Part shown: positions 26,501 through 45,103 of the stretch, piece after piece
Layout: the number at the start of each line of letters is the position of its first letter
How positions within the stretch are numbered: the first letter of the stretch is position 1
Source: Escherichia coli
Lineage (GTDB): Bacteria; Pseudomonadota; Gammaproteobacteria; Enterobacterales; Enterobacteriaceae
NCBI GenBank assembly: GCA_005400705.1
Contig: GCA_005400705.1_4079.1
DNA: 64,000 nucleotides
Reading direction: 5' to 3' (one strand)
Translations under genes and position numbers: made by a program
Notes under the pieces: model-generated
The model's input: the letters and a program-made list of their open reading frames with translations, nothing else
What the model was told of the DNA's origin: nothing
Databases searched by the model: none

Positions 26501-29500
26501 GCTAGTGCTTTACGAACGTTGATTTCACGATTGCTTAGTGAACCATTATCATTATGAACACTATAATCTGCGTAAAGCATATCATTGAGTTCAACTGTAC
26601 TGTTTTCACGACCAATCGCTTTCCAATAAATTGAATCGCGTGATTGTGATTTAATATACAATGTCCAAATGTTTTCACTATCGGTAACTCTGATAATATC
26701 GCCAACTTGGTAGTTTTTAGTATTAGCATCTTCTAAGCTTGACTCTTGAGTATAAGTCGTGTTACTATCATACCCAACATCATACCAATCAGCATATGAC
26801 CAGTACTGAGTCATGTCCAATGAAGTTCCTAGTGATTCAACATAATCAGATTGTTTAATCATTTTATGTTGTCCCTCACCTTTGTTCTCTAACGTTATAG
26901 TAACAACACTACCCGCGTTTGCTGGACTATTCATTAACTGAATATATCCATTTTCGTCGAAGTGAATAAAATAAACAGCACTAGAAGTTAATGGATTTGG
27001 TAGATATCCACTAGTACTTAAAATAACAGCGTCATTTTCTTTAAATTTATCACTTTCAACTGCAATAACTAATTCATTATTGTAAGACAATACACGGAAA
27101 GAAACTTCATTCGGATTAACTTCAGTGGTTTTAACATTAAACACATCTTCCATAACAACACTATTAGTGGTTATGTTTTGTGACCTATAATAATTATTAG
27201 CACTTTCTACAAAGTTTCTACGAGCTTCTATAACATTTTGGAACCAAGTTTTGTTTGATCCTAAACCGTTATCAACATCTGGATATAATAAATTAATCAC
27301 AGAACCTGATTCAGTTGTTTCTTGACCAATTAGTGAGTTCCACATTGAATCCCAAATTAGTGGGTTAAAGTTATAGCTGTCACCTTCTTTACATAGTTGA
27401 TACTGGTCATGTTTAACAACTTCAGTACTATCCATGTAATAAGAAACAGTTAAAATACTAGTATCATCATTCACTTTAAATTGCATATTACTAAGAATAA
27501 ACGAGTTTTCATTGATTGGAGCGAACCAAGGAATGTTTAGCTGTGTTGGATCTTTAATAATACGAGCAATGTCAGTACATGATTTTGTTCTGGTATGTAG
27601 TGGTGGTACATAAATTGTATCACGTACCCAGAAATAGTATTTTGTCACATAACTATCAGTTGAACTATCATATTCCAAAAATGTACTATAATTATCTTCA
27701 AGTGCAGTTCCACTTGGTAGATACATAGTATTATTTTTGTTTTTCTTAGCAACATCTTTACAGTATTTGTCCCAGTTATATGGCTCAACTGGTGAACAAA
27801 CCCACTCTAACACATCAATTGTACTATGTGGTAATAAACGACCCCAGTTGTAACGTTTGTATTCATTTGTTGCATCAATGTCAACATTACCGTCTGCGTC
27901 ATAAATTGCACGAGTATAATCCAAATAAAATGCAGTGCTAGTGTTCCACCATACTTGACCAACTTTATCAGCACCCCAAGCTTGGATTAACTCTCCATTA
28001 CTATTATACTGTGCAGGATCAACTGGTGAAGTATATGTTACGTTTTGCATAGCCGCACCTGGAATAACACCATTAATTGGGTCATAAACGTTTAGATATA
28101 ACTCAGTAATGTTAGTACGTTCGTCATATGTCGTTGGACGATCAAATAAAGTACTTTGTGGTGCTTTAAAACTATATTTCTTGTCAATGTAAGCTTGACG
28201 TTCATCAGTACTGACAAAACGTGATACATAACGATACAAACGTGGGCGTGTATCTGGATCAGTAAATTCAATATCAATAGAAGTGTCAAATGGAACTACC
28301 ATAACTTTAGGATCAGAACCAGCAGTATAATATTGACTTTCTACTGTTAAAGTATCTGGCATAAAGTTAGTTTCATCAACAAAATAATAATAATCACCAT
28401 CTTCAAGTGGTACATTATCAGTTAATGTTACTTTACAAAATTGTTCAGCATACACATCGGTATTTTCAATAGGTGTTATAGAAACCATTTGTACATTAGT
28501 ATCAACCAATTCAAAAATGTTCCACAAACCATTACCGTCTTTAAACATCCACACAGATTCAGGATTTTCACCTTTACCATTAGTATAAGTTATGCGGTCA
28601 TTATATGCAGTACTGAAATCTTTTGTTGTGTACGATACTTCATCCAATGTTACTGGACCAATATCTGGAAGTTGGATATTTTCACTTCTTCCACTACGCA
28701 TTGGGAATGAGAACTTACCATTTGGACGTGTAATCCAACGAGGATCTTTACCCTGCTCACCGAAGTATACAATATGATTACCATTACCATTTGAAGTTGC
28801 ATTTACATCAAAAGAAACCATTTGAGGTTGTTGTTTAAATTGGTCATTAATCAATTTAAATTGAAGATTTTTCTTACCATCAATATTACCATATGTACCA
28901 ATTTTAAATGCCCATTCTTGTAATGCTTTATATTCATCTGTGTCATATGATTTAGAAACACGAAGTACACGTTCTAAAACTTGGTTAGTACCTTTATCAT
29001 GAATGAATCCTTTATAGAAATCAACACGACTAACATCACTACTAATCATACGCTGTAGATAATCACGAGATTGATAACCAATCAAATGGTTTGACAACTC
29101 TTGTAATTGTACATCACTTACTGGAGTTTCACTATCATAATAATGTTGGAAATCCGACACTAATTTTTCAAATGATGGTAGTGTTCCAGCTTCCAAGATA
29201 ATAAATCCAGGAGCTTGTAGACGACCAGTCCATGAACCAGTAATGTAGCCATACATTTTAATTAATTCTTGAATAGAACCATAAGTTGGCTGATAGATAT
29301 AATCACCAAAAATAGTCTTATCATCAAAAATAACAGCATGTTCATATGAACACAAACTTAAACGAATTAATGCTATACGTTTATTGGATTCTAAAGTTCT
29401 AACAGTAAAGATATTACCAATACGAGAAGTTTCAATTTCATATTGACGTATACCTTGGTTGTTATCATCAAGTAATGACCACACACCACCGTTATTTTGT

Positions 29501-32500
29501 GTAATAGATTGAACTGAACCAAAGTCTGCACCAAATTTAGCATTTGCTGCACTTGGTGTACAAGAAATAAATTCACCCGTTACCAGAGAATTCTGACTCC
29601 AGATCACAAAATCTTTAGCAATAGTGTTCCAATCTTGTTGAGCACCACTATCATTTACATCTTCAAAAATCCAGCCATGTTCTTTAAGATATTCACCATA
29701 ACCACAAATAAAAGTATAAACTTCTTGGTAACTATTAAAAACTTTACCATATTCAATGGAAGCTTCAGATTTCCATTCGTTATAATGAACAACATTGCGG
29801 TTTTCTAATTTAAGAGTTACTTTTCTACCATTTTTCACTGGCAGTTTATATTTGAATTTAGCACCAACTAAATCATATCCATCAATCTGATATGCACTAC
29901 CATTCCAAGTAATTTTGATAGCACTCATTTGTTCATCACGAATATTATTCGAGCGAACAAGACCAATAGTTTGGTTTTCTTGTGAAATAAGACCAAATGA
30001 TTTAGCATTGAATGTTAGCTGATCTGCTTTAGTAAAACCACCAATTTTATGACCAACATTTATATAAGAAGAACGAACTACATCCCCATATTTGGTTGTA
30101 ATGTTTTTATTTTGATACATCAAATAATCACTAACAAACATTTGATAACCAATTGTTCTTGTGTTATTTTCACCATGAACTACAGTGTTTTTATCAAAAT
30201 TAATACGCTTACGTGTATCACCATAAAGGAATTGTGAACCATCAGTGAATACTTCTTTTAAATTGTCATTTCGGGTATCCCAAAAATAGTTAGCAAATTG
30301 TGCAGGTTTAGCTTTATACAAAAGTAGCATTTGGTCATATGCAAACAATGTAGTGTTCATGTATGTAAATTCCATGTCACCCATGTCACCATATGCCCAA
30401 GGTTCTGCTCTATGATTTAAAGAACCAGACACTAAACCTAAAATTTCAGGTGCAATATATTCAACAACACAAATATCAATACCGGAAGATGTTTTATTAC
30501 CAGTTTTTGTGATTTTAAATGGCTGTACACCAAATCTTTTATATTTGTCATACTGTCCACGGCGATCACCAGACAAAATAGTACCAGTACTACTATCTCC
30601 GATAGTGCCGTCGATATCCCATAGACCACTAGGAACTAAATCTCCTTGTTCATTCATAACAAGTGCTTCATATACATATACCACATCACTATCACGCTCA
30701 CCAACTTGAACAGCAGTTGGTTCATATTCTTGGTTCCACCAAGTTGGACGCTGTGAAAAGCCAAACATTTCCCACGGATGTGTTGCAGGGCGATATGTAC
30801 CATATTGGTCAGTATAAATTGCACGCCATGAACCACGAGCAGGAATTTCAGTACTTTGACCATTAACTACATAATAAGTGCCAGTATAGTTCCAAGTTCT
30901 CCAATTGTTAGGATCATAATCATGTGTACTATTACTGATACCATTAGTTGCGGTGAAGTTAATGTATCCACGTAGTAATAATGTTTGTTTCTCTTCAGCA
31001 CTATATTCAGTTTTAGTGAAATATGGTGTAGGGAAAAGGTCATCACTATTCAATACTGGTACGTAATCAACATCTTTGAATTTATTATCAATACTATTAA
31101 AAATTCTATTTTCTAATTCATATACAACATCATCCATTTTATCAACACCATTGATAACACGGTATGCTTTGGAAATAATACCAGTATGACTGATGTTATA
31201 ACAGCTTGGTTTACTACCAGCAGTGAGGAATGTCGCTTTTTCTGGTACATATGCTTGAAGAATACCTAAGAACTGTGGTGTTGGTGGTATAAATGCACGA
31301 ATGAATCCAGAAGTACTTCCAACATTATCATAATAGAATGGGAATGAACTATCACGTCCCATATTAATAGTAGTTAAAATTGCATCAACAATGTTTGCAG
31401 CACTATTTTGTAAAAAGTCTGATGGATTTTCATCATACATACGAAGCATTTGTGTATTAAATTTATTAATGAATCTAAAATATTCAGATTGCATAAACAT
31501 AGTTGCTTCAAACAAATCAATATCTTCATTTGCAGTATGTGCCATCAATGGAAGCATAGATGCTTCATTTTGGATAATTTTAGTACCTACGCCATTATTA
31601 ACCAATCCTTTAGCCAAACGTTCTTCATAGTCATTGAAATCATCAGAAGAACCACGTGTAATGTTCTTTTGAATAATATCCTGAAAATGTAAAGTGTAGT
31701 CACCTTGGTTAATGTATATAATATTAGAATTATATGGGTTATTTTGTAGGTTGATTGGAACTTCATATGCACCTAATTCTTTATTAGGAGTTACAGTACT
31801 GCTATAAGTTCTGATTTGAATAACAGAATCTTCATCCAAATCTACAGTACTATCTAGAGTGATGCTTTGTACTTGACCTTTTGAAACATTTTTGGTATAT
31901 TTGGACACATCAACACCATCAACCACAACTTCAATAATATCAGAATCATTATCTAAAACTTTTTGTGCCAATTCGAATGTATGGTCATATTTTACAATCT
32001 GAACACCATCACCAGTAATTGGATGCCAATCTAGATAAGTTTCACGGTCAGCTTTATAGTACTGATATGTTCTATCAACTTCAATAACATATGCATACAT
32101 ACCATCAACTGGTTCTTTAAAAACTTCCATATCATAAACAGTACTGAATACACGATACATATCAGTACGTTGGACTTGTGGAGTTTGTTTTACAAATTGT
32201 TTAGAGTACTCTTCTGAACGAACCCAATCGGTTTGAAGATTCATTTCATTATTTTCATCAATAATGTTATAATAGTATAAACCATCAATTTCAACTTCTT
32301 TCCCAAGATGGTCATAGGTATAACGTTGGGATTGTAAAAAGTTTTCATAAATGTAATAATTATAATCACCAAGTTCAATGTTATATCCATATACACTATC
32401 AGTTGCATAGTTGTAATTTATTTTAAAACCAAACAACTCTGAACCTTTAAAGTTACTTGATGGATATGTAGTACTGTTGTCAAGTTTGATACCATTACGA

Positions 32501-33570
32501 TCATAAAGTTGGAATTTAGGGAATATGTTAACACTAGTTTTTGATTGTGCACGAACCCACAAAGATCCATTCCAGTACATAGAACTATTACCATACTCAT
32601 TACCTTTAGTGATTAGAACAACATCACCATCTTGAGGTTCACCACTTGGGCGTGATTCGGTTTCTTCTTCTGGATCTAGTGCTAAACCATAAACACGCGT
32701 ACCATCTTGCATTTTTTTCACATATACATTATAAATTCTATTGTTTTCACCATTGTTACCAATACTGGTGAATAGAATACGCATTCCATCTTGCGGAATA
32801 ATACCATCAATACGTATACCACTATTAATATCTTTTTGAACGATATCTTCAGGTTTAATAATATCAGAGAACAGATCAACAGTTCCACGGAATTTTGTAC
32901 CGTAGTTCATTAGCTCAATATTTTTATTATATTCAATAATTGGTGCACGTGCACGAATAAAACGTGAATCTTGCATTAATTCTTCAGTTAATATTGAGCC
33001 ATCTTCTAATGTTTCACCTAAAGTATACCAAAAGTTTTGTAGTGACCATGTATTACCATTAAGTGCTCCACGTTCCATTACAATGTAATCAGGTGAAGTA
33101 ATATTATAAGAGTTTTTAGTATCCCAAAGATATGAGCTAAAATTGTTCATTTTATTTGGGTTAATAGCTGGAGTCCATGCATAAAACTTACCGTTGAACA
33201 AACGGCTTTCATTATCGGTTAGTGCTCCATAATGATTCATGTATCCAACTAGATCATCATAAAATTGAATTGAACGAATTGTCGAATCATCATTTTTTGA
33301 GACGTAAGCAGTGGACAACTGATAAAGTTGACGTGCTACAGTACTTTCATGTAAGAAGATATTACCAGCAGCGGCAGGAGAACCCATATCACCAATATAG
33401 CCGTCAACTAATTCGTTTTCAGCCGGATTAAACCATTGTTGAATAACATCATCACTGACTTTTTGAATATCTTCTAAGCCTTGCATCCACTCAGGCAATC
33501 TTTTAATAAAAAGCTTCTTCTGTACTGCTTCAGCCATCTGTGTAGGTTGAAACTTAAAATTATTAGTCAT
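23599..33570 (-). CDS. giant baseplate wedge / tail structural protein (about 3320 aa, gp7-like position)
   Basis: Single uninterrupted ORF of about 10 kb directly downstream of the gp6-like gene; ORF track gives 33600 as start but ATG 33570 has a GGAG RBS at 6-nt spacing and the first ATG has none. Confidence 0.55.
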   Translation of the reverse strand: MTNNFKFQPTQMAEAVQKKLFIKRLPEWMQGLEDIQKVSDDVIQQWFNPAENELVDGYIGDMGSPAAAGNIFLHESTVARQLYQLSTAYVSKNDDSTIRSIQFYDDLVGYMNHYGALTDNESRLFNGKFYAWTPAINPNKMNNFSSYLWDTKNSYNITSPDYIVMERGALNGNTWSLQNFWYTLGETLEDGSILTEELMQDSRFIRARAPIIEYNKNIELMNYGTKFRGTVDLFSDIIKPEDIVQKDINSGIRIDGIIPQDGMRILFTSIGNNGENNRIYNVYVKKMQDGTRVYGLALDPEEETESRPSGEPQDGDVVLITKGNEYGNSSMYWNGSLWVRAQSKTSVNIFPKFQLYDRNGIKLDNSTTYPSSNFKGSELFGFKINYNYATDSVYGYNIELGDYNYYIYENFLQSQRYTYDHLGKEVEIDGLYYYNIIDENNEMNLQTDWVRSEEYSKQFVKQTPQVQRTDMYRVFSTVYDMEVFKEPVDGMYAYVIEVDRTYQYYKADRETYLDWHPITGDGVQIVKYDHTFELAQKVLDNDSDIIEVVVDGVDVSKYTKNVSKGQVQSITLDSTVDLDEDSVIQIRTYSSTVTPNKELGAYEVPINLQNNPYNSNIIYINQGDYTLHFQDIIQKNITRGSSDDFNDYEERLAKGLVNNGVGTKIIQNEASMLPLMAHTANEDIDLFEATMFMQSEYFRFINKFNTQMLRMYDENPSDFLQNSAANIVDAILTTINMGRDSSFPFYYDNVGSTSGFIRAFIPPTPQFLGILQAYVPEKATFLTAGSKPSCYNISHTGIISKAYRVINGVDKMDDVVYELENRIFNSIDNKFKDVDYVPVLNSDDLFPTPYFTKTEYSAEEKQTLLLRGYINFTATNGISNSTHDYDPNNWRTWNYTGTYYVVNGQSTEIPARGSWRAIYTDQYGTYRPATHPWEMFGFSQRPTWWNQEYEPTAVQVGERDSDVVYVYEALVMNEQGDLVPSGLWDIDGTIGDSSTGTILSGDRRGQYDKYKRFGVQPFKITKTGNKTSSGIDICVVEYIAPEILGLVSGSLNHRAEPWAYGDMGDMEFTYMNTTLFAYDQMLLLYKAKPAQFANYFWDTRNDNLKEVFTDGSQFLYGDTRKRINFDKNTVVHGENNTRTIGYQMFVSDYLMYQNKNITTKYGDVVRSSYINVGHKIGGFTKADQLTFNAKSFGLISQENQTIGLVRSNNIRDEQMSAIKITWNGSAYQIDGYDLVGAKFKYKLPVKNGRKVTLKLENRNVVHYNEWKSEASIEYGKVFNSYQEVYTFICGYGEYLKEHGWIFEDVNDSGAQQDWNTIAKDFVIWSQNSLVTGEFISCTPSAANAKFGADFGSVQSITQNNGGVWSLLDDNNQGIRQYEIETSRIGNIFTVRTLESNKRIALIRLSLCSYEHAVIFDDKTIFGDYIYQPTYGSIQELIKMYGYITGSWTGRLQAPGFIILEAGTLPSFEKLVSDFQHYYDSETPVSDVQLQELSNHLIGYQSRDYLQRMISSDVSRVDFYKGFIHDKGTNQVLERVLRVSKSYDTDEYKALQEWAFKIGTYGNIDGKKNLQFKLINDQFKQQPQMVSFDVNATSNGNGNHIVYFGEQGKDPRWITRPNGKFSFPMRSGRSENIQLPDIGPVTLDEVSYTTKDFSTAYNDRITYTNGKGENPESVWMFKDGNGLWNIFELVDTNVQMVSITPIENTDVYAEQFCKVTLTDNVPLEDGDYYYFVDETNFMPDTLTVESQYYTAGSDPKVMVVPFDTSIDIEFTDPDTRPRLYRYVSRFVSTDERQAYIDKKYSFKAPQSTLFDRPTTYDERTNITELYLNVYDPINGVIPGAAMQNVTYTSPVDPAQYNSNGELIQAWGADKVGQVWWNTSTAFYLDYTRAIYDADGNVDIDATNEYKRYNWGRLLPHSTIDVLEWVCSPVEPYNWDKYCKDVAKKNKNNTMYLPSGTALEDNYSTFLEYDSSTDSYVTKYYFWVRDTIYVPPLHTRTKSCTDIARIIKDPTQLNIPWFAPINENSFILSNMQFKVNDDTSILTVSYYMDSTEVVKHDQYQLCKEGDSYNFNPLIWDSMWNSLIGQETTESGSVINLLYPDVDNGLGSNKTWFQNVIEARRNFVESANNYYRSQNITTNSVVMEDVFNVKTTEVNPNEVSFRVLSYNNELVIAVESDKFKENDAVILSTSGYLPNPLTSSAVYFIHFDENGYIQLMNSPANAGSVVTITLENKGEGQHKMIKQSDYVESLGTSLDMTQYWSYADWYDVGYDSNTTYTQESSLEDANTKNYQVGDIIRVTDSENIWTLYIKSQSRDSIYWKAIGRENSTVELNDMLYADYSVHNDNGSLSNREINVRKALALLKNSFDLHQSEIVFDMVKYVHVEQSVVDWVFKTSYIYIVGLEQSLVQNYSNDNLINQIVEYFEEVKPYRTKIRSQIEQKTSDDDLIKGLCNDLDPNGYIFVDGSWIKTEKDIWDYEYAQFNEITQKWEQVGSLPSDFVTPNRRFQEIDIIMHYDNIQCKPNEDLASINELVSVNNKYQSNEKDAVSNYELQRYIYSFPEYSEETFDLLIAYQMQIYYPELDVTLGTAYGVNQWYKDHAEDLEATDEFTATLERVYKESTHNDMFTDLRQYVQYNTLANRLKLYKDISDEKIHDEVGCGFSGLTYNDNPSTRLPLGFSSSNDYNYGYFEISSELYQKYISLIKDKNPDASDYEVKVKLEVEYGVYVYRYDEVGGDTRFYTDAIHVLAGMRGLFDKDATDKYEKAEEILSKTPIDIYAITMIPRKYVYLNVNGVYQSIPDEQSIDDFMEDYFITNGEMVELAEINLDDLPLDQNNPMYSDYQYILDSITEAKYFNDMNAFDNLALESQTSSIKWEVKDDEVDPYIVDISDINPSGRDVGQIRFTVDGYGFDNVSLVQLRDNSRYQTEGMAIINPYKHTEAIVSIPSYAKIENDINKTTSKFDEKYFYRVRSINSLTEAEIVDNDLSDGDKVMIFTPDGEDFVRYQNHTWETILRVSNIKNNTTPILFTVRNTGKETIELIDESTGTVLRYDNITLAQQNEPVQPLALNIVRVRTFADPEFVKNGIKLYEQNRNYTIDVINYDVFYDTTLNGGKYNDGITPDDVDVWIISNEIFDVDGITIDNGYNLPITGAGVLSELARTKMTDSLEINVIEYDSSVIQPFRNNEGIWVYGFPMVDGMYIGVVGGTVTNITTISEENTTYVSQPKSISPYSIRNNVLSGSAANMNDIISIGYEKVEVRNANNLLRGVMYSAEHDFKLNTTYSFNGINLGNYDMLKRYTQNSYTIDLSVYTDSLQVSGNDIKNILLVK

Positions 33571-33611
33571 TTTTGGACTCCATATAATTCGTTCATTCAT
33601 TTGATTTATTT

Positions 33612-37623: not shown

Positions 37624-38112
37624 TTATACGGATTCAACGATACGTGCCATCTTTTCCGCTCGTGAAGTGGTTTGTTTATACCATGTACTATCACGCAATT
37701 CTTTACCAGCAGTTTTGTAATCAGCTTTACCTAATGCGGTCATTGCTTTTTTAAATTTCAAAACTTTGGTTTTTCCCATTTGGAATACCATTAACCATAA
37801 TACACGTTGTACCTGTACTGGTGCAGTCATACCGAATTGTTCATAAATTGATTTTGCATCATTGTACGCAGTTTGAGCATCTTTGAGAAGAAGTTGGTCA
37901 GCTTGAGCTTCGGTCAAACCATTCTTGAAATTTTCACCAGGAAGAACTAGATGACCATAACCAATAGTATCAAGACCTAAACTGTCTTTATATACCCAAA
38001 ACTTATCATTTTTAAAATAACCAAGTTTTTTCTGATAAGCAATAGTTCCTTCAAATTCTTTAATTTCCTTAAAAAATTGCTCATCTGTATTTTTAATTTC
38101 CCATTTACTCAT
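37624..38112 (-). CDS. T4-type lysozyme (GH24 muramidase), free-standing
   Basis: 162 aa with EFEG...YKDSLGLDTIGYGHL, MVFQMGKTKVLKF and STWYKQTTSRAEKMARIV matching T4 lysozyme motifs; catalytic Glu and Asp equivalents present. Confidence 0.85.
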   Translation of the reverse strand: MSKWEIKNTDEQFFKEIKEFEGTIAYQKKLGYFKNDKFWVYKDSLGLDTIGYGHLVLPGENFKNGLTEAQADQLLLKDAQTAYNDAKSIYEQFGMTAPVQVQRVLWLMVFQMGKTKVLKFKKAMTALGKADYKTAGKELRDSTWYKQTTSRAEKMARIVESV

Positions 38113-38128
38113 AAAGATATCCTCGTTT

Positions 38129-38136
38129 TATTTATA
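38129..38136 (-). promoter_or_regulatory. T4-type late promoter (TATAAATA)
   Basis: Exact TATAAATA on the minus strand 16 nt upstream of the lysozyme ATG, followed by a GAGGA RBS. Confidence 0.5.
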
Positions 38137-38148
38137 GTGCTAAAATAT

Positions 38149-40812
38149 TTATTGACATGCCTCCAAACGACGAGCCATTAACTCCGCACGGCGTGTGGTT
38201 TGGCGATACCAAGCAGAATTACGGATTTGTGCCGCTGCTTGTTTGTAATTACCTTTTGCCATTTCTGATAACATAGTTTTAAATTTCAATACACCACCTT
38301 TACCCATCTGAAATACCATTTGGCATAGTACTTGTTGAGCAAGATAAGGAGTTTTCATGTTATATGATGCATAAATTGATTTGGCATCATAAATTGCTTT
38401 ACTACTATCACGAACTAACATATCGTTGGCTTGCTGTTCAGTTATTCCATCTGAAAAGTTTTCACCACTAATAATCAAGTGACCATAACCAATAGTTGGA
38501 TACCCACGACTATCCAAATAACGCCAGAATTTACCATTACGATAATATCCTTTTGCTTGTTGGTATTGTAATGTACCTTCATATTCTTTTAATTCAGAAA
38601 TAAACTGTGCATCACCTGGAACAACTTTCCAATCGATTGCAGTTTTATCAACATTTCCAATATTATAGGTAGGTTGCTCCACCGGAGTTGTTGAAGCTCC
38701 ACTTCTCTGTGTTCTTCTCCTACGAGGCACATGACGAGAACCACGTTGAGAATATCCAGTACCTATCGTTTTGATTTTTGTTGTAACTACCAATTCATCA
38801 CTATCAACTGAAGGTTGTACAACTGCTTTTGGAGCAGATTGATTAGTTGCTTGACCACCAATTAATGTTTTATTCGCCGCATCAGACCCTGTTCCTGTTT
38901 GTGAAGCATAAAATAATCCTGGGTCAACAGAACCACTGAATCCAAGAACATTTGCTGATGTAACACGAATTTCAAACTGTATGACACCATTTGCTTTTCC
39001 AACAACTTGACCTTTTTGAACAACATCTTTGTTTAATAAATCAGATTGAATATTATAAAAAATAGATTTATATCCAGACTTATGTTGTATTAAAAGAGCA
39101 CCATTAGTAATTACTACCACACCACCATCTGGTGCAACTACATCACCTTTACATTGTATTTCCCAACCTGAACGGTCTGCCTTTCCTCCACTTTGTGTTG
39201 GAACACCTTTCCCCCAGTAACCATATTGTCGAATAGTACCGCTACATGGCATTAACATATGTAAACCTTCATATGTAATACTATATCCAGTCATCCCAGG
39301 ATCAGATGTCATCAAATCTTGTGATTGAACTTGTTCAGTTTCTGATGTATAGTTAACAAACTGAACAGCTTCAGTGTCTTGTGCTACGGGTAATTCTGGT
39401 GATACATCATTTGCTGGTTGTGGTTGTACTGGTGATTCACTAGAACCACTTCCACCACCTTGTCTTGGTGGTTCAACATAACTACCATGATTTTCAGCGT
39501 TAACCCATGCAGCAATATCATGAATGTGTTCATTAAGACCAGCAGATGGTGTTCTAAAGTTTGGTGCAGTAAATTCAGCAGTACCGCTATTACCACCACT
39601 ATTAACTGTTAATGTTTGACCACCACCACTAATAATTGCTGATGATGATCCAATTAGGTTTGCAGATGTTGCGGCAGAAATAGAAGCATTTGAACCAGCC
39701 GTAATATCAGTACTGCTACCACTTTGCATACGTAATGATGCAGCAGTAACTAAACGAAGGTCTGCCCCAGAATTAACAACAACTTGACCACCAACTTTTG
39801 CATCAAGAGCACCAATTAGATCTAATTTAGTATTTGCACCAACTCGTGCATTGAAATCTTGTCCGGTTTCAATATTATATGAACGTCCAGCAGTAATATT
39901 AATATCTTGACCAGCACGAATATTAATATTCTTATCACAGTGCATGTCAATATCACCTTCACCAGTGAATTTTATACGTGCAGTGCCATCACGGTTAATT
40001 AAAAGAACATCACCAGTAGCTTCTGATAAAAGAAGTTGTGCACCACTACGTGTTTTTATTACGACACCTTCATTTTTACGAGAACCAACACGTGTATCGT
40101 TTACTGGGTTATTAAATTGTGTATCTTGATATCCATCTGGGTCTTGATCCCACGTTGGTGCTGTTAATTCCTCTTCAGTATATCCATCATCAATAATAAA
40201 ACTATTACCACGTGGCGAAGACATACCATATACAGTACTGGTGGTTTGACGAGTACTACTACGATTCGCCAACCCAGCTTCTTCGTCATATAAAAGGTTT
40301 TGCTTTTTAAGACCTGCGATAATTGGAACGTTAGCATATTTGTCTTGCATATCGGTAGTGATAGTGTTACGATCATAGTCAGTAACAGGAAGTGGCATAT
40401 CAGTTCCACCATAATTACTTACTTCAGTTGCCATACCAGGAACCATAGTATTCATACGCTGGTCATATACACAACCAATCCAATATGCTTGGAATGTACG
40501 GGCTTGTGCAAAAATTACAACAACTGTACACCCTACATCTGGTGGTACTGCCCAAAAACCATATCCTTTTGGATATTGACCATATGCATCAGCACTTGGA
40601 ATACCTGGTGTTTTGCCAGCAAAAGGAGACATGTAAGATGCTTCTATCCATGATTCTTTTGAGTTTTTATCACTTTGAGAACCTTGTATCCAAACTTTCA
40701 GTTTTCCTGATTTAGTTGGATCTCTGTTATCCATAACAGTTGCTAACTGCGGATAAGATGGGTCAAAACGACCCAACTGCTGTTGTGCATACTTTTTACT
40801 TGTATCTGCCAT
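38149..40812 (-). CDS. baseplate central spike (gp5/VgrG-like) fused to an M23-like domain and a C-terminal GH24 lysozyme domain
   Basis: 887 aa: N-terminal OB-fold-like region; beta-helical repeat region (NINIRAGQDINITAGRSYNIETGQDFNARVG...); M23-like barrel lacking obvious HxH; Arg-rich linker; C-terminal 150 aa paralogous to the free lysozyme (YEGTLQYQQ...PTIGYGHLI...MVFQMGKGGVLKF...). Confidence 0.7.
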   Translation of the reverse strand: MADTSKKYAQQQLGRFDPSYPQLATVMDNRDPTKSGKLKVWIQGSQSDKNSKESWIEASYMSPFAGKTPGIPSADAYGQYPKGYGFWAVPPDVGCTVVVIFAQARTFQAYWIGCVYDQRMNTMVPGMATEVSNYGGTDMPLPVTDYDRNTITTDMQDKYANVPIIAGLKKQNLLYDEEAGLANRSSTRQTTSTVYGMSSPRGNSFIIDDGYTEEELTAPTWDQDPDGYQDTQFNNPVNDTRVGSRKNEGVVIKTRSGAQLLLSEATGDVLLINRDGTARIKFTGEGDIDMHCDKNINIRAGQDINITAGRSYNIETGQDFNARVGANTKLDLIGALDAKVGGQVVVNSGADLRLVTAASLRMQSGSSTDITAGSNASISAATSANLIGSSSAIISGGGQTLTVNSGGNSGTAEFTAPNFRTPSAGLNEHIHDIAAWVNAENHGSYVEPPRQGGGSGSSESPVQPQPANDVSPELPVAQDTEAVQFVNYTSETEQVQSQDLMTSDPGMTGYSITYEGLHMLMPCSGTIRQYGYWGKGVPTQSGGKADRSGWEIQCKGDVVAPDGGVVVITNGALLIQHKSGYKSIFYNIQSDLLNKDVVQKGQVVGKANGVIQFEIRVTSANVLGFSGSVDPGLFYASQTGTGSDAANKTLIGGQATNQSAPKAVVQPSVDSDELVVTTKIKTIGTGYSQRGSRHVPRRRRTQRSGASTTPVEQPTYNIGNVDKTAIDWKVVPGDAQFISELKEYEGTLQYQQAKGYYRNGKFWRYLDSRGYPTIGYGHLIISGENFSDGITEQQANDMLVRDSSKAIYDAKSIYASYNMKTPYLAQQVLCQMVFQMGKGGVLKFKTMLSEMAKGNYKQAAAQIRNSAWYRQTTRRAELMARRLEACQ

Positions 40813-40825: not shown

Positions 40826-43075
40826 TTAATCAACTATACTATCGTGACGTTTGAGTGCACGAATTACAATTGCAGCTTGAATTTGTTGTGTAAAAGAACC
40901 ACCTGCACCAAAATCATGAACAATTTTATTAACACGATAAATTGTTTGGTTAAATGTGGTTGGTGTATTAATATCCAAAACACCAGTGTTATCATTTATT
41001 GATATTACTGGTTGTAATTTCAGTAATAGATACGCTTCAGATGTTATATAATTTGCTACATGATAATCATCTGGGTTAATTTCCATATCTTCACCATTAA
41101 TTACTTGTTCTAGATATTGTAAGTAAGAGTAATCACTCCACCCTAACCAGTACGGGTCGCCTACTACACGCATATCGAGTTTACACAAAAAAGGTCTATT
41201 GTAATAGTTGTCACGTATTTTACGTCTATCCATTTCATATGTGCTGCTGTTATCGTTTAACGAAGCGGATAAAGTTGTTTCATTGTTAGTTGCTTCGGTT
41301 GGCATTGTGAACACTTCACCATAACGGTGACCAACACCATCAGTACCGCCATCGTTTTCTTCATAAGTGGTTACATAATCCTCAATATATTGAGGTAAAA
41401 CATTGACTTGATAGTTATTATAACGGTCTTGTTCTTCTGCGTTACCAACCTGCATTTGATTTTTTGCTAAAGTTTCAACTTCAGTTAACAATTGTTGTTG
41501 GGCTTGTGTTAACATCCCTCCTAAATCACGAGTTACACGTAAATCACTTGTTTTTGCCCATGCGTCTGGTATACTATTGTATTGTACACCTTGAATATTG
41601 AGTTCTTGGGATGTATGTGTACCTGCATGGTTCGCTACATCTTGTATCGGACCAGGGTTACGTGTAGTGGCTACGAAAAATTGCTGATCGAATTTCAAAT
41701 CCAAATCAAGTATCTCACTATTAAGCCCACTAAATTGATAATTATAAGTTTTCATGTTTATTTTTGGTTTTTGATCATTAGGATCTACGTATTTTTCTGC
41801 GTTCTCGAAAAAGTACTCAAATGTGAAATTTTCAGGTTGTAAATCCGATTCATGAACAATATCACCTATTTTAAATCTAACAATATAAAAAATTACTTTA
41901 TAAACAGAAGTATTACGATAATTATCAAAACCAACGTATTGTTTAACTGGTATAATGTTTACAAATTGACGCACACTAGTACTATCATCGGCTTGTACAG
42001 TACATGTATCAATAACGTCATCAATAATTCGAGATATAGGAGTACTTGGGTTCCATGAAAAGTTTTTAGAACCTTGTGCACCACTTTTAGTTGTTCCGGC
42101 CTCTGCCATTTGTTTAGAATCATAGTTTATAAACAAATCTTGCAAATCAGGTGCTACTTTAAATTCGAAAAATTTACCTTCGGATAATTCACCAAATTTA
42201 TATCTAAGATAACCATATTGTTGGTCAGCCATCTGATTTAATTTATCTTCTAAATCAAAGCAGAAGTCACCAAAGTTTTCAGCAGTACAATTGAATGGTT
42301 CTTTTAAGGTCCATTCAATGTTATCAACTAAAGCTGCTCTATTATGAACTAAGTTCATAGTATACATCATAGTACTACCACTTTGTGAAGCACTTGCAGT
42401 AACACTATTAATTTTAACTGACCAGCGTCTTGTTGTTTCTGGGATAATTTCAGGTATTCCATTTTTATTAAAGCCAATAAACTTTAATTCCAAGATCAAT
42501 GGCAAGTCCATAAATTTATGATATCTAAGTTTGTTACTTAACGAAATTAATTCATCATAAAGACTCATACTATTATTTTCAGACATATTAAGTACTGCTG
42601 TATTAAAACAATAGTTTGTTGTCATTCCTGGTGTTGAAGGTCCAGCTTGTGTCATTTGTACACTAGTGATATTATATTTGCCAGTAACACCACTTTCTGA
42701 TATCACATGTCGTTGCACTTCTGCATCTGGGTAAAGCCAAAAGTTTTTAAAATCATCTTTATCTAAGGCAAATAAACAAAAGTGCCATGTTGGATTATCA
42801 TATTTCAATAATTTATTGTCATACGGTATTACAAACTGACTTAAATCTAGATCTTCATAAACTTGATCAACACTAGCACTTTGTTTTGGTAATGATACTA
42901 CATTACTTACATTTGCTTTGTAATTATTTTTTGTAATAGTTTTTACATCATTTTGTAATGTATTTGCTGTAGCTTTCAAACTATCAAGTGCATTAGATGT
43001 GGTGGTTTTAGCCTTACCAGTAATACTTGTAATATCATTTTGAAAATTATCAACTGTACTTCGTAAATCTGCCAT
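40826..43075 (-). CDS. baseplate hub protein (gp27 / GpD-like), tentative
   Basis: 749-aa ORF immediately upstream of the spike gene and downstream of a LysM-like protein, the conserved hub position; GGAG RBS; assignment is by synteny, not motif. Confidence 0.4.
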   Translation of the reverse strand: MADLRSTVDNFQNDITSITGKAKTTTSNALDSLKATANTLQNDVKTITKNNYKANVSNVVSLPKQSASVDQVYEDLDLSQFVIPYDNKLLKYDNPTWHFCLFALDKDDFKNFWLYPDAEVQRHVISESGVTGKYNITSVQMTQAGPSTPGMTTNYCFNTAVLNMSENNSMSLYDELISLSNKLRYHKFMDLPLILELKFIGFNKNGIPEIIPETTRRWSVKINSVTASASQSGSTMMYTMNLVHNRAALVDNIEWTLKEPFNCTAENFGDFCFDLEDKLNQMADQQYGYLRYKFGELSEGKFFEFKVAPDLQDLFINYDSKQMAEAGTTKSGAQGSKNFSWNPSTPISRIIDDVIDTCTVQADDSTSVRQFVNIIPVKQYVGFDNYRNTSVYKVIFYIVRFKIGDIVHESDLQPENFTFEYFFENAEKYVDPNDQKPKINMKTYNYQFSGLNSEILDLDLKFDQQFFVATTRNPGPIQDVANHAGTHTSQELNIQGVQYNSIPDAWAKTSDLRVTRDLGGMLTQAQQQLLTEVETLAKNQMQVGNAEEQDRYNNYQVNVLPQYIEDYVTTYEENDGGTDGVGHRYGEVFTMPTEATNNETTLSASLNDNSSTYEMDRRKIRDNYYNRPFLCKLDMRVVGDPYWLGWSDYSYLQYLEQVINGEDMEINPDDYHVANYITSEAYLLLKLQPVISINDNTGVLDINTPTTFNQTIYRVNKIVHDFGAGGSFTQQIQAAIVIRALKRHDSIVD

Positions 43076-43086: not shown

Positions 43087-43401
43087 TTAGCCTATGTTTC
43101 GAGTACCATTAAGATAATTTTGTACTCTTTGATTTGCTGGTATTCTAATTGTTACTCCACTTTTAAAATTATATATAGGATCTTCTCCTAGTATGTCTGG
43201 ATTTAACAATGCGAAAATATAATATAAGCGTTCATTACCATACATTTCGTATGCTAAACGCCAAGGTTGATATTCATATTTCAATGGGATCTCATAAAAA
43301 TCATCAGTATCAGCCGGAACAATATCACGTGGTAAATTATACCCAAGATACCATGTTTGTTTCACCTTAGCGTAAGGTGAGTATTGACTATAGTTGGACA
43401 T
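43087..43401 (-). CDS. LysM-like tail protein (GpX-like), tentative
   Basis: 104 aa; C-terminal segment YEIPLKYEYQPWRLAYEMYGNERLYYIFALLNPDI...SGVTIRIP fits the LysM pattern; position before the hub as in pyocin/Mu-like modules. Confidence 0.4.
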   Translation of the reverse strand: MSNYSQYSPYAKVKQTWYLGYNLPRDIVPADTDDFYEIPLKYEYQPWRLAYEMYGNERLYYIFALLNPDILGEDPIYNFKSGVTIRIPANQRVQNYLNGTRNIG

Positions 43402-44132
43402 TAAATGAATCCTCCTTTACGTAATAGTTCACCACGTTTGAATGCATTGAGGTTGAACGTTTTAGTCATATAATCCGATGTTGGTTGTTCTTCAAGTTGT
43501 AACATAACTGAGATTTTTTGTGGAACCCAAACTTCATCTTGTGGGTTCATATATCCAGTACTTCTAAGTTGTTCGAAGAATTTTCTACTATCCATGTCGG
43601 ATAAATTAAAAGTACTATCGCTACTATTCAACGGAACTTGAATATAAGAAACATCATTTGGGTAAGTAAAATTATAAGATTTTAAAATAACAGGAATATC
43701 ATTATATGTATAACGACCATATCCACTTAGAAGTAAGATTGGTGGTGGTGCACCTGCAATTGCGAGTTCGGGGTTATTAGCCGAAGCAGCTTGTCTACCA
43801 AAATCCATCAACGAAACAGAACGTATAAAATGAACACATGCCAACGCATACATAGCTTCTGCTGCTGTATTCGCATAAAATTCACCCTGAATCGTGAAAA
43901 CTGTATTAGTAGTGTTCTTATAGTTGTTATAGTTACTGTTAGTATGTATAGGGGACTGTGTTTCATACTGAATTGACCTTTGTTCAGTAATTGTTGGTGT
44001 TACAGTCCAAACCAACCCATTAGTTGGACGCAGAAACGAAAGTAGAGTTGGTTCGGAGCTATCTCCAAAATCACCATATACATAGTTAGCACCTGCGGCT
44101 TTAGGTCGTAATCGAATTCTACGATCAATCAT
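43401..44132 (-). CDS. baseplate/tail tube-associated protein (tube initiator-like?), tentative
   Basis: ORF-track 43401..44222; start moved to ATG 44132 (MIDRRIRL...) which has a GGAGAA RBS at 8-nt spacing; first gene of the baseplate operon. Confidence 0.4.
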   Translation of the reverse strand: MIDRRIRLRPKAAGANYVYGDFGDSSEPTLLSFLRPTNGLVWTVTPTITEQRSIQYETQSPIHTNSNYNNYKNTTNTVFTIQGEFYANTAAEAMYALACVHFIRSVSLMDFGRQAASANNPELAIAGAPPPILLLSGYGRYTYNDIPVILKSYNFTYPNDVSYIQVPLNSSDSTFNLSDMDSRKFFEQLRSTGYMNPQDEVWVPQKISVMLQLEEQPTSDYMTKTFNLNAFKRGELLRKGGFI

Positions 44133-44178
44133 CTTTTTGATTCTCCATAATAAGGGAACATTTGATGTATTTATACGT

Positions 44179-44206
44179 GGGACAAACTGCTTTTTGGTGC
44201 TATAAT
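44179..44206 (+). promoter_or_regulatory. sigma70-type early promoter (GGGACA-N16-TGcTATAAT)
   Basis: GTGGGACA 44177-44184, 16-nt spacer, extended -10 TGcTATAAT 44198-44206; shares the core TGGTGCTATAAT with the promoter at 49898. Confidence 0.6.
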
Positions 44207-44263
44207 AACATTGATGGTACAAGGATTGTACCTATTGGATTTAAACATGGAGAGTAAAATACA

Positions 44264-45103
44264 ATGACAAATAGACCAAAGCGTAAAAAGTATCTCAATA
44301 ATGCTGATTTACTGCGTGAAATACAAAAAAGTAAAATTTCATATTGCTGGTTATTAGACAAATCATATAGTATGTATGATTATATTGTTTTTCATGAGTC
44401 AGAAATTACTGCTGAGTTACTAGAAAAAGCTAAGGCAGCCCGAATTAAACGACTGAACAATGAAATGCTTGATAGTATTCGTGAAAAGGAAAATATGAGT
44501 GCTAAAAAAGCTAAAGAATATGCAGATGAACACAATTTAGTTATCACTGACGTTCCAATTGATGAAGTTGTTATTCGTGTTATTACAGATGAACATATTC
44601 CACCAGATACTAGAGTTAACTTTGAACCATTCAAGCATTATATTGTAGATAATGAAGGTATTCTCTATGAAGTTTGTCGTTCTCACTGGAAAGGCGACCT
44701 TGAAACTGGTGAATTCAGTACTGTTCATGGTAAAATTACAAATGAACTTGGGAAGATGTTCATTAAACTTGCAGAGGAAATCTCACACAAATCTAATTAC
44801 AGAAACTATACATACTTAGATGAAATGATGGGTGATGCAAGAATACAATTAGTTAAAAACGCACTTCTCTTTAAAGAGAGCATTCTTTATAAAAAAGATA
44901 AACCAGCAGTTCAGCTAAATCCTTTCTCTTACTATACATCATTCGTAAACAATAGTTTTCGTTCTATATTGAATAGTGAGAAAAATGTTCGAAATATACG
45001 TGATGATTTACTTGAAATGCATGGCTTTACGCCATCACATACACGTCAAATTGAAATTGAATTGAACATGATTGAAAGGAAAAATGAAGATGGCTCTGTT
45101 TGA
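44264..45103 (+). CDS. late-transcription sigma factor, gp55-like
   Basis: 279 aa; N-terminal KKYLNNADLLREIQKSK resembles the gp55 family N-terminus as recalled from memory; conserved T4 synteny gp55-gp47-gp46. Confidence 0.55.
   Translation: MTNRPKRKKYLNNADLLREIQKSKISYCWLLDKSYSMYDYIVFHESEITAELLEKAKAARIKRLNNEMLDSIREKENMSAKKAKEYADEHNLVITDVPIDEVVIRVITDEHIPPDTRVNFEPFKHYIVDNEGILYEVCRSHWKGDLETGEFSTVHGKITNELGKMFIKLAEEISHKSNYRNYTYLDEMMGDARIQLVKNALLFKESILYKKDKPAVQLNPFSYYTSFVNNSFRSILNSEKNVRNIRDDLLEMHGFTPSHTRQIEIELNMIERKNEDGSV

What the first reader, a model, noticed from the sequence alone, without database searches (positions are those of the whole stretch)
37624..40812. Central spike with lysozyme moved to the extreme C-terminus plus an M23-like domain, next to a free lysozyme paralogue
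The gp5-like protein reads OB-fold, beta-helix, M23-like barrel (no obvious HxH catalytic histidines), Arg-rich linker (RHVPRRRRTQR), then a GH24 lysozyme domain. This differs from T4 gp5, where lysozyme is internal and the needle is C-terminal. The adjacent 162-aa lysozyme is a clear paralogue of that C-terminal domain and has its own TATAAATA late promoter. This looks like a duplication in which one copy became a virion-borne lysin and the other a soluble enzyme.
Basis: partly seen in the sequence, partly recalled or inferred. Interest (0 to 1): 0.5.

Follow-up and report, generated by a model that had tools for sequence, protein, structure and literature searches.

The report
Jumbo-phage tail spike carrying lysozyme payload

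Summary
The window is an Asteriusvirus jumbo coliphage (98.9% nt identity to phAPEC6). The 887-aa ORF reads OB-fold (23-116), VgrG/gp5-type beta-helix (~245-420), an invariant HxH motif (H429/H431), a Gly-rich linker, an M23/LytM-fold domain (520-640), a basic stretch (RHVPRRRRTQR), then a GH24 lysozyme (725-887) that keeps Glu/Asp/Thr. The M23-like domain has one histidine and none of the zinc or catalytic residues, in any of the full-length homologues aligned. Its best structural matches are the non-catalytic regulators EnvC and DipM. The adjacent 162-aa lysozyme is 52% identical to the spike's C-terminal domain and has late-promoter motifs upstream.

The duplication is old. Own-pair identity (median 0.51 over 29 contigs) equals cross-phage spike-versus-free identity (0.50). 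It is also separate from T4's e/gp5 pair.

None of this is new. RaK2 gp078 (2013) and CBB_240 (2017: OB, central M23, C-terminal lysozyme, adjacent free lysozyme, ATAAATA late motif) were described. phAPEC6 gp241 and CBB_240 were found in virions by mass spectrometry. The 162-aa orthologue LysUE1 was shown to be muralytic.

Small additions here: the M23 domain is degenerate family-wide, the HxH lies before the payload, and distant spikes carry other payloads (GH19, GH24 alone).

The parts
38149..40812 (-). 887-aa baseplate central spike gene (orthologue of phAPEC6 gp241, RaK2 gp078, CBB_240)
   Evidence: [quoted passage not shown] 99.9% aa identity to the phAPEC6/PBECO4 proteins. Found in virions by mass spectrometry in relatives.
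40465..40746 (-). N-terminal OB-fold, residues 23-116 (gp5/gpV/VgrG hub-docking domain)
   Evidence: PF04717 Phage_base_V, E 7.9e-7, 29.8 bits against a cut-off of 23.8. The family profile aligns its DNRDPxxxGKLKV motif with VgrG OB-folds.
40081..40464 (-). Conserved region of unknown fold, residues 117-244, between the OB-fold and the beta-helix
   Evidence: Many invariant residues across 76 homologues, e.g. P125, P142, R148, D208-G210, W221. No Pfam hit. Patchy AF2 confidence.
39553..40080 (-). Triple-stranded beta-helix region, residues ~245-420
   Evidence: PF10106 DUF2345 at 278-329. Family profile hits the VgrG and phage central-spike beta-helices in the PDB at E 1e-4 to 3e-3. Not modelled as a helix in the monomer prediction, as expected for a trimeric fold.
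39520..39528 (-). HxH motif H429-I430-H431, a candidate iron-binding histidine cage marking an apex
   Evidence: H429 and H431 are invariant in 76 full-length homologues and the context LNxHxH is conserved. HxH is the defining mark of Apex domains in P2 gpV-type spikes. Metal binding not tested.
39256..39462 (-). Linker after the HxH, residues 451-519: Gly-rich 452-458, conserved ANDV 467-470, predicted strand 478-486 and helix 490-499
   Evidence: Alignment. AF2 secondary structure, with pLDDT <50 at 501-511.
38893..39255 (-). Degenerate LytM/M23-fold domain, residues 520-640, with no catalytic site
38704..38811 (-). Conserved segment ELVVxTxVxSIGSGYSQRGS plus the basic stretch RHVPRRRRTQR, residues 668-703
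   Evidence: Conserved in the alignment; 81 of 87 sequences have at least two consecutive R/K here. Predicted strand 675-682, followed by a disordered stretch 701-719.
38152..38640 (-). C-terminal GH24 (T4-type) lysozyme domain, residues 725-887
38129..38152 (-). Two late-promoter-like motifs before the 162-aa gene: ATAAATA at 38146-38152 (overlapping the spike's last codon and stop codon, 33 nt from the ATG) and TATAAATA at 38129-38136 (16 nt from the ATG)
   Evidence: 15 of 17 ATAAATA and 5 of 5 TATAAATA copies in the window lie within 60 nt upstream of ORFs of at least 90 aa. The same motif was proposed as the late promoter in CBB and GAP32.
37624..38112 (-). 162-aa free GH24 lysozyme (orthologue of phAPEC6 gp242, CBB_239, RaK2 ORF073, LysUE1)
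   Evidence: ORF. PF00959, E 5e-9. 52% identity to spike residues 728-885. Catalytic E/D/T conserved in 72/72 orthologues. LysUE1 is muralytic. Not in virion proteomes.
44168..44175 (-). TATAAATA motif upstream of the 243-aa gene; likely promoter of the transcript that includes the spike gene
   Evidence: No such motif lies in the 13-nt gap before the spike gene (ORF coordinates) or at 40813-44167 on the minus strand. The motif sits 35 nt before the ATG at 44132.
44264..45103 (+). gp55-type late sigma factor gene, context for the promoter motif
   Evidence: phrog_12791 'sigma factor for late transcription' E 3.4e-154 and phrog_234 E 8.4e-18. Annotated as such in phAPEC6 gp237c.

Best explanation
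The 887-aa protein is the trimeric central spike of the contractile-tail baseplate of an Asteriusvirus jumbo phage. Its N-terminal OB-fold plugs into the hub. The beta-helix is the membrane-piercing needle and ends in a conserved HxH motif (inferred: a P2 gpV-type metal cage, or apex). Each chain then continues through a flexible Gly-rich linker into a payload: a non-catalytic LytM-fold domain, a conserved strand plus basic stretch, and an active-looking GH24 lysozyme.

On tail contraction the needle crosses the outer membrane. The three tethered lysozymes then cut peptidoglycan locally so that the tube can reach the inner membrane. This is the same job as the T4 gp5 lysozyme, but wired like an 'evolved VgrG', with the enzyme behind the needle rather than before it.

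The dead LytM domain most likely acts as a binding module, either for peptidoglycan or for a partner protein. That is how other degenerate LytM domains work.

The neighbouring 162-aa gene is an ancient paralogue of the payload lysozyme. It is transcribed from its own late-promoter-like motif, is not packaged, and acts as a soluble muramidase late in infection.

Shown: domain identities and order, loss of the M23 catalytic residues, retention of the lysozyme catalytic residues, paralogy and its age, and (in the literature) virion presence and LysUE1 activity. Inferred: trimer geometry, metal cage, delivery of the payload to the periplasm, and the roles of the LytM domain and of the free enzyme.
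For: Identity and context: 98.9% nt identity to phAPEC6. Gene neighbours are gp53-like, gp25-like and gp6-like wedge proteins.

Spike family: PF04717 and PF10106 above cut-off. The N-terminal profile hits VgrG and phage central spikes in the PDB.

HxH: H429 and H431 are invariant in 76 homologues. HxH marks Apex domains.

Payload: the LytM fold is supported, and the catalytic residues are absent in all homologues examined. The GH24 fold with E745/D767/T773 is supported. Predicted disordered linkers lie at 501-511, 660-664 and 701-719.

Virion presence: gp241 and CBB_240 by mass spectrometry.

Free copy: 52% identity, muralytic orthologue, absent from virion proteomes, promoter motifs positioned like the other late motifs, and a late sigma gene nearby.

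Age of the duplication: 29 contig pairs with own-pair identity 0.51, cross-phage 0.50, spike-spike 0.54 and free-free 0.61.

Modularity: distant spike homologues carry GH19 or GH24-only C-terminal domains.
Against: No trimer model or map exists, and the monomer AF2 model does not fold the beta-helix. So where the payload sits relative to the needle tip is unknown.

About 455 residues follow the HxH, whereas in P2 gpV only 12 do. HxH cages also occur in the middle of fibres, so the motif may not mark a true tip.

The published peptide counts (7 and 3) do not say whether the C-terminal payload stays on the mature virion or is cleaved off.

RaK2 gp078 itself was not detected by mass spectrometry.

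A separate TM-LysM-GH24 protein is the published endolysin candidate, which leaves the free enzyme's role open.

No enzymatic test of the spike's lysozyme domain has been reported in the papers read.
Confidence: 0.75

Rival explanations
1. The LytM-fold domain mimics EnvC or NlpD. Once delivered to the periplasm it binds host amidases (AmiA/B/C) and releases their autoinhibition, so the phage uses the host's own hydrolases alongside its lysozyme to open the cell wall.
Confidence: 0.1
2. The post-HxH payload is removed, or partly removed, by proteolysis during assembly or infection, at the Gly-rich site 452-458 or at the RRRR stretch. The mature needle would then have a clean tip, and the enzyme would be either lost or released as a free periplasmic enzyme.
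For: T4 gp5 is itself cleaved during assembly, and the lactococcal Tal protein is cut at a Gly-rich site that removes its M23 domain (both from my own knowledge, not verified here). A Gly-rich motif with G452 conserved in at least 90% of sequences directly follows the apex. Dibasic or polybasic stretches are conserved in 81/87 homologues and are followed by a predicted disordered segment.
Against: No processing is reported. The phAPEC6 table lists the protein at its full predicted 95.9 kDa, but that is a calculated mass. If the payload were simply discarded, the strong conservation of its catalytic residues would be hard to explain, so at most this is a release mechanism and not a loss.
Confidence: 0.2
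3. The 162-aa lysozyme is the phage's main endolysin, the counterpart of T4 e, rather than an accessory enzyme.
For: It has a late-promoter motif, no signal peptide or transmembrane segment visible in the sequence, catalytic residues in 72/72 orthologues, and recombinant muralytic activity that needs outer-membrane permeabilisation, as for typical Gram-negative endolysins.
Against: The same genomes encode a 308-aa protein with an N-terminal hydrophobic segment, a LysM domain and a GH24 domain. The CBB authors proposed this as the endolysin and found it toxic on induction. No holin was identified next to the 162-aa gene in the window. The gene sits inside the baseplate module.
Confidence: 0.4

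Closest known systems
[quoted passage not shown]
   Same: They are orthologues: 99.9% aa identity to phAPEC6 and PBECO4, and about 58-68% to GAP32 and RaK2. Length and domain order are the same. They share the adjacent free lysozyme, the gp25-like gene and the ATAAATA late motif. The unusual architecture, the central M23 hit and virion presence are already published.
   Different: Nothing substantive. The papers did not note that the M23 domain lacks its catalytic residues, nor that a conserved HxH precedes the payload.
T4 gp5 (tail lysozyme) together with T4 e (endolysin)
   Same: Both have an OB-fold, a trimeric beta-helix and a GH24 lysozyme in one spike protein. Both phages also have a free GH24 paralogue. 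The baseplate gene context (gp53, gp25, gp6 homologues) is shared.
   Different: The order is OB, helix, payload here and OB, lysozyme, helix in T4. T4 gp5 lacks HxH and is capped by the PAAR protein gp5.4. T4 has no LytM domain. The two paralogue pairs arose separately: T4 e and gp5 group together at 100% bootstrap and lack the 13-residue insertion shared by both jumbo-phage copies, and neither jumbo copy is closer to e than to gp5.
P2 gpV and phi92 gp138 Apex-type spikes
   Same: OB-fold, beta-helix and a universally conserved HxH at the end of the helix.
   Different: In gpV the chain ends 12 residues after the HxH. Here about 455 residues of linker and enzyme follow. Iron binding was not tested.
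'Evolved' VgrG proteins of type VI secretion, such as VgrG-3 of Vibrio cholerae with a C-terminal peptidoglycan hydrolase (from my own knowledge)
   Same: The spike core is followed by a C-terminal enzymatic effector aimed at peptidoglycan. The core is homologous, with profile hits to VgrG1 and other VgrGs. C-terminal modules are interchangeable among relatives.
   Different: This protein has no fused gp27-like N-terminal module. It is a phage virion protein and not a secreted effector carrier.
phi29 gp13 (tail-knob enzyme with a lysozyme-like and an M23 domain)
   Different: The gp13 M23 domain is an active D,D-endopeptidase. Its domain order is lysozyme then M23. It is not a spike with an OB-fold and a beta-helix.
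EnvC, NlpD, DipM and SpoIIQ degenerate LytM domains
   Same: They share the fold and have lost the zinc and catalytic residues. They are among the best sequence-profile and structure matches, and EnvC is the top structural match.
   Different: They are bacterial division or sporulation factors. No partner is known for the phage domain, and sequence identity is only about 20%.
[quoted passage not shown]
   Same: It is a solved example of a central spike whose C-terminal end carries a putative wall-degrading enzyme beyond the conserved OB and beta core.
   Different: Its host is Gram-positive. The stalk is a coiled coil rather than a beta-helix needle, and the payload is a putative phosphodiesterase acting on teichoic acid.

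Membership tests
gp5/gpV/VgrG central spike family | N-terminal OB-fold (Phage_base_V) | tested here: met
   PF04717 at residues 23-116, 29.8 bits against a cut-off of 23.8. OB motif aligned to VgrG chains.
gp5/gpV/VgrG central spike family | Beta-helical repeat region after the OB-fold | tested here: met
   PF10106 at 34.7 bits against 30.7. Family profile hits the VgrG and central-spike beta-helices at E 1e-4 to 3e-3.
gp5/gpV/VgrG central spike family | Encoded in the baseplate module and present in virions | tested here: met
   Neighbours are gp53-, gp25- and gp6-like. Virion mass spectrometry of near-identical gp241 and of CBB_240 comes from the literature.
gp5/gpV/VgrG central spike family | Homotrimer at the tip of the tail tube | not testable with these tools
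   Only monomer prediction was available. No high-resolution baseplate map for this phage group was found.
T4 gp5-type tail lysozyme architecture | Domain order OB, lysozyme, C-terminal beta-helix | tested here: not met
   The order here is OB 23-116, helix 278-329 and beyond, lysozyme 765-882.
Apex-type spike (P2 gpV / phi92 gp138) | Conserved HxH motif at the end of the beta-helix | tested here: met
   H429 and H431 are invariant in 76 sequences. Criterion taken.
Apex-type spike (P2 gpV / phi92 gp138) | HxH lies near the C-terminus, so that the apex is the end of the chain | tested here: not met
   456 residues follow H431.
Apex-type spike (P2 gpV / phi92 gp138) | Fe ion held in a six-histidine cage | not testable with these tools
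   Needs metal analysis or a trimer structure.
GH24 T4-type lysozyme (both copies) | Phage_lysozyme domain above the curated cut-off | tested here: met
GH24 T4-type lysozyme (both copies) | Catalytic Glu11, Asp20 and Thr26 equivalents | tested here: met
   E, D and T are present in both window copies. Conservation is 86/87, 86/87 and 61/87 in spike domains and 72/72 for all three in free copies.
GH24 T4-type lysozyme (both copies) | Muramidase activity | not testable with these tools
   Lytic (turbidity and CFU reduction) activity was reported for the 162-aa orthologue LysUE1. No assay of the spike domain was found.
Peptidase M23 (active metallopeptidase) | M23/LytM fold | tested here: met
Peptidase M23 (active metallopeptidase) | Pfam PF01551 above the gathering score | tested here: not met
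   22 bits against 28.7 for the window protein. The homologue P0076 passes at 35.7 bits.
Peptidase M23 (active metallopeptidase) | HxxxD and HxH zinc ligands plus the catalytic histidines | tested here: not met
   The corresponding positions are R547..E551, N587 and V610-I611-Q612, mapped partly by eye. Independently of that mapping, the only His in 520-640 is H577, and the residues are absent in all homologues examined.
Degenerate LytM factor (EnvC/NlpD/DipM/SpoIIQ type) | LytM fold that has lost the catalytic site but is conserved | tested here: met
Degenerate LytM factor (EnvC/NlpD/DipM/SpoIIQ type) | Binds and regulates a partner hydrolase or other protein | not testable with these tools
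   No partner is known. Needs biochemistry.
T4-type late promoter | TATAAATA-like motif just upstream of late genes, together with a gp55-type sigma factor | tested here: met
   5/5 TATAAATA and 15/17 ATAAATA copies lie within 60 nt of ORF starts, although only about 2.5% of positions do. A late sigma gene is at 44264..45103. Transcription start sites were not tested.

The most novel reading that the evidence does not exclude
The conserved, catalytically dead LytM domain tethered to the spike is a phage-delivered mimic of the bacterial amidase activators EnvC and NlpD. Placed in the periplasm at the puncture site, it would switch on host amidases, or another host autolysin, to help the spike's own lysozyme breach the wall. 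That would make it a virion-borne hijacker of host cell-wall regulation.
Probability: 0.08. Interest if true: 0.7.

Novelty: already known. Interest (0 to 1): 0.22.

Why it matters
As it stands, this is a correct reading of a published feature of Rak2-like jumbo phages, so it adds little. Three points give it some residual value.

First, it is a clear case in which a phage lineage solved the same problem as T4 (carry a lysozyme on the needle and keep a free copy) by a separate duplication and with the opposite domain order. That is useful for thinking about modular spike evolution and its parallel with evolved VgrGs.

Second, the M23 domain is dead across the whole family yet conserved. This points to a binding or regulatory role that nobody has tested.

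Third, an HxH 'apex' motif followed by 450 residues challenges the simple rule that HxH marks the chain end of a spike. It raises a concrete structural question: where do three ~45-kDa payloads sit on a piercing needle?

Tried and rejected
(1) Orthology with the T4 pair (free = e, spike = gp5). Rejected: T4 e and gp5 cluster together at 100% bootstrap, both jumbo copies share an insertion that T4 lacks, and each hits gp5-lysozyme and T4L about equally.

(2) Recent tandem duplication or gene conversion. Rejected: own-pair identity equals cross-phage identity over 29 contig pairs.

(3) Active M23 peptidase. Rejected: no catalytic residues.

(4) TATAAATA as a chance match. A plain count suggested so, with 5 found against 10.9 expected. 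The positional test reversed that view.

(5) Exclusive sisterhood of the spike and free lysozymes. The neighbour-joining tree did not resolve it: spike domains are paraphyletic, the enterobacterial GH24 group is nested among them, and bootstrap support is 1%. No maximum-likelihood software was available. The shared W..D N-terminal extension and the 29-36% identity of the third paralogue are the only positive evidence.

(7) The 749-aa upstream protein as a gp27-type hub: no Pfam or PDB sequence hit, and not pursued further.

(8) Locating the mass-spectrometry peptides, to see whether the payload is in virions: no supplementary files are held for the phAPEC6 paper.

(9) A PAAR gene: none among the module neighbours scanned. 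The rest of the genome was not searched.


Full report
WHAT IS THERE. The window is a piece of an Asteriusvirus-type jumbo coliphage. Bases 37213-43401 are 98.9% identical to phAPEC6 and 97.8-98.6% identical to PBECO4, 121Q and other listed relatives. The two ORFs named in the finding lie exactly where stated, on the minus strand: 887 aa at 38149..40812 and 162 aa at 37624..38112. They sit inside a baseplate module. Reading 5' to 3' on the minus strand, this runs: a 243-aa virion protein, a gp53-like protein, a 749-aa virion protein, the 887-aa protein, the 162-aa protein, a gp25-like protein and a 1153-aa gp6-like wedge protein.

DOMAIN ORDER OF THE 887-AA PROTEIN. Pfam places the gp5/VgrG OB-fold (PF04717) at residues 23-116, VgrG-type beta-helix repeats (PF10106) at 278-329, and Phage_lysozyme (PF00959) at 765-882. 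All three score above their curated cut-offs. A profile built from the first 452 residues of ten homologues hits VgrG spikes and phage central spikes in the PDB at E 1e-4 to 3e-3, through both the OB motif and the beta-helix. The order OB, helix, lysozyme is therefore real and is the reverse of T4 gp5, which runs OB, lysozyme, helix.

THE M23-LIKE DOMAIN. For this sequence alone the call is weak: PF01551 gives E 1.9e-4 and 22 bits against a cut-off of 28.7, over residues 549-607. It is secured by three further results.
- Homologues pass the threshold, with P0076 at 35.7 bits, and 13 of the full-length relatives carry a precomputed PF01551 hit.
- A profile of residues 497-645 from 21 sequences hits SpoIIQ (3.5e-6), LasA, zoocin A, DipM, Csd proteins and EnvC among PDB sequences.

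Residues 520-640 contain a single histidine, H577. An active M23 site needs the HxxxD and HxH zinc ligands plus catalytic histidines. The corresponding positions read R547..E551, N587 and V610-I611-Q612. This mapping was done partly by eye, but the histidine count does not depend on it. The same loss is seen in every full-length homologue displayed, down to 36% identity, while the rest of the domain keeps many invariant residues. This is a degenerate LytM domain that has been conserved for something other than catalysis. According to the M23 review, such domains usually act through protein-protein contacts, as EnvC and NlpD do when activating amidases.

Two histidines at the end of the beta-helix, H429 and H431, are invariant across 76 aligned homologues within a conserved LNxHxH context. 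A Gly-rich stretch follows at 452-458. In P2 gpV-type spikes the HxH motif forms an intermolecular iron cage. It is described as the one universally conserved feature that identifies an Apex domain, and spikes without it (T4 gp5) carry a PAAR cap instead. In gpV the chain ends 12 residues later. Here 456 more residues follow. The same source notes that HxH cages also occur inside fibres, so I treat 'apex, then payload' as an inference and not a result.

LINKERS. The full-length AF2 monomer model (pLDDT 73.9) shows confident LytM and lysozyme domains separated by low-confidence segments at 501-511, 660-664 and 701-719. Two predicted strands, 478-486 and 675-682, flank the LytM domain. The second strand lies in a conserved motif, ELVVxTxVxSIGSGYSQRGS, which runs into the basic stretch RHVPRRRRTQR at 693-703. 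At least two consecutive basic residues occur there in 81 of 87 sequences.

THE TWO LYSOZYMES. The 162-aa protein aligns with spike residues 728-885 at 52% identity, without gaps (E 6e-57). Both copies keep the T4-lysozyme catalytic Glu, Asp and Thr. In the spike these are E745, D767 and T773. Glu and Asp are kept in 86 of 87 spike domains, and all three residues in 72 of 72 free copies.

Only two copies lie in the window. This phage type has a third GH24 protein elsewhere: phAPEC6 gp293c, 308 aa, with an N-terminal hydrophobic segment, a LysM domain and a GH24 domain. It is only 29-36% identical to either window copy. The CBB authors regard its homologue CBB_187 as the likely endolysin.

AGE AND INDEPENDENCE OF THE DUPLICATION. 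Free-copy orthologues in other genera are 55-66% identical to the window's free copy, which is closer than the window's own spike domain. I paired spike and free copies from 29 contigs. The median identities were:
- own pair: 0.51
- spike of one phage against the free copy of another: 0.50
- spike against spike: 0.54
- free against free: 0.61

The duplication therefore predates the radiation of the whole clade, and there is no sign of gene conversion.

T4 e and the T4 gp5 lysozyme domain group together at 100% bootstrap. They lack a 13-residue insertion after the catalytic Glu that both jumbo-phage copies share. Each jumbo copy hits gp5-lysozyme and T4L about equally in the PDB. The two lineages therefore made their spike-plus-free pairs separately.

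The neighbour-joining tree does not show that the spike and free copies form an exclusive clade. The spike domains evolve faster and come out paraphyletic. A group of ~150-aa enterobacterial GH24 proteins, 46-51% identical to the free copy, nests among them, and support for spike-plus-free monophyly is 1%. The positive evidence for sisterhood is limited to two points: a shared N-terminal extension with a conserved Trp and Asp that the bacterial and T4 groups lack, and the greater distance of the third paralogue.

PROMOTER. TATAAATA lies at 38129-38136(-), 16 nt before the ATG. A second ATAAATA at 38146-38152 overlaps the spike's stop codon and lies 33 nt before the ATG. A plain count gives no enrichment, with 5 copies against 10.9 expected. 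The positions tell a different story. All 5 TATAAATA and 15 of 17 ATAAATA copies lie within 60 nt upstream of an ORF of at least 90 aa, although only about 2.5% of positions do. On the minus strand most sit 33-36 nt from the ATG. A gp55-type late sigma gene lies at 44264..45103. The CBB paper proposed ATAAATA as the late promoter of Rak2-like phages. No motif precedes the spike gene, which is separated from the 749-aa gene by only 13 nt. It is probably transcribed from the motif at 44168-44175.

WHAT WAS ALREADY KNOWN. The following points are all published.
[quoted passage not shown] It described a beta-helix flanked by unmatched regions with a C-terminal lysozyme, and listed three lysozymes with their similarities.
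- The CBB paper (2017) described CBB_240 as an N-terminal gp5 OB domain, a possible central M23 domain (pfam01551, E 6.5e-4, also seen in other Rak2-like phages) and a C-terminal lysozyme. It noted the adjacent T4-type lysozyme CBB_239 and the gp25-like CBB_238, and stated that only 238 and 240 are confirmed structural proteins.
- phAPEC6 gp241, which is 99.9% identical to the window's protein, was detected in virions with 7 peptides. gp242, the 162-aa protein, was not.
- The 162-aa orthologue LysUE1 of phage UE-S1 was cloned and shown to lyse cells, more strongly with EDTA.

HOW IT MOST LIKELY WORKS. The protein is the trimeric central spike. The OB-fold docks in the hub and the beta-helix pierces the outer membrane. 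Three tethered payloads, each a LytM-fold module plus a GH24 lysozyme, reach the periplasm and cut peptidoglycan locally. This is functionally like T4 gp5 and architecturally like an evolved VgrG. More distant spike homologues support the modular view: they carry GH24 alone (P0094, P0115) or GH19 (P0099, P0107, P0110) behind the same core. Phage 812's solved central spike is a precedent for an enzymatic domain at the far end of a spike.

The role of the dead LytM domain is open. It could bind peptidoglycan, dock the payload on the virion, or regulate a hydrolase. The free lysozyme is a soluble late enzyme. Whether it or the TM-LysM-GH24 protein drives lysis is not known.

VERDICT. The additions from this analysis are minor: the family-wide degeneracy of the M23 domain and its EnvC/DipM-like fold, the invariant HxH ahead of the payload, the age and independence of the duplication, and the variety of payloads in distant relatives.

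Noticed in passing
window 23599..33600 (-): A giant 3333-aa ORF lies directly downstream of the wedge gene, with ATAAATA 6 nt before its ATG. It corresponds to phAPEC6 gp245 (381.9 kDa, 17 peptides in virions), which is annotated only as hypothetical.
   Followed up: no
window-wide; e.g. 51721-51728(-), 44168-44175(-), 37170-37176(-), 15521-15527(-), 4728-4734(-): ATAAATA/TATAAATA is depleted overall but sits almost exclusively within 60 nt upstream of ORF starts (15/17 and 5/5). On the minus strand the most common spacing to the ATG is 33-36 nt (5 of 8 copies). This fits a T4-like late promoter read by the gp55-type sigma factor encoded at 44264..45103(+).
   Followed up: partly
window 40826..43075 (-): A 749-aa virion protein (phAPEC6 gp240, 5 peptides) lies immediately upstream of the spike gene, where a gp27-type hub might be expected. 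It has no significant Pfam hit and no PDB sequence hit.
   Followed up: partly
window 43401..44222 (-): The 243/273-aa ORF matches only positions 263-507 of the 507-position profile phrog_12050. Some relatives therefore encode a protein twice as long, and this gene corresponds to the C-terminal half.
   Followed up: no
proteins P0191-P0236: A group of 145-164-aa GH24 proteins from enterobacterial sources (Pantoea, Serratia, Erwinia, Kluyvera, E. coli; contigs up to 5.4 Mb) is 43-52% identical to the free jumbo-phage lysozyme. They share its 13-residue insertion after the catalytic Glu, and their relation to the phage copies is unresolved.
   Followed up: partly
L004:26101-27027 (phAPEC6 gp293c; outside the window): This is the third GH24 protein of this phage type: 308 aa with an N-terminal hydrophobic segment, a LysM domain and a lysozyme domain. 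It is the published endolysin candidate and is 29-36% identical to the two window copies.
   Followed up: partly
proteins P0087-P0116: Distant homologues of the spike core (about 30% identity over the first 40%) end either at ~500-600 aa or carry other C-terminal wall-degrading modules: GH19 chitinase-like (P0099, P0107, P0110) or GH24 without the LytM domain (P0094, P0115). Some of the short ones have an LxxLxGHxH motif ~95 residues before their end, resembling the window's GLNEHIH.
   Followed up: partly
window 38704-38811 and 39403-39414 (-) (residues 668-703 and 467-470): Two short motifs flanking the LytM domain are conserved across the family: ANDV, and ELVVxTxVxSIGSGYSQRGS followed by a polybasic run. 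Strands are predicted nearby, at 478-486 (downstream of ANDV) and at 675-682 (within the second motif). Their role (docking, cleavage site or membrane interaction) is unknown.
   Followed up: no
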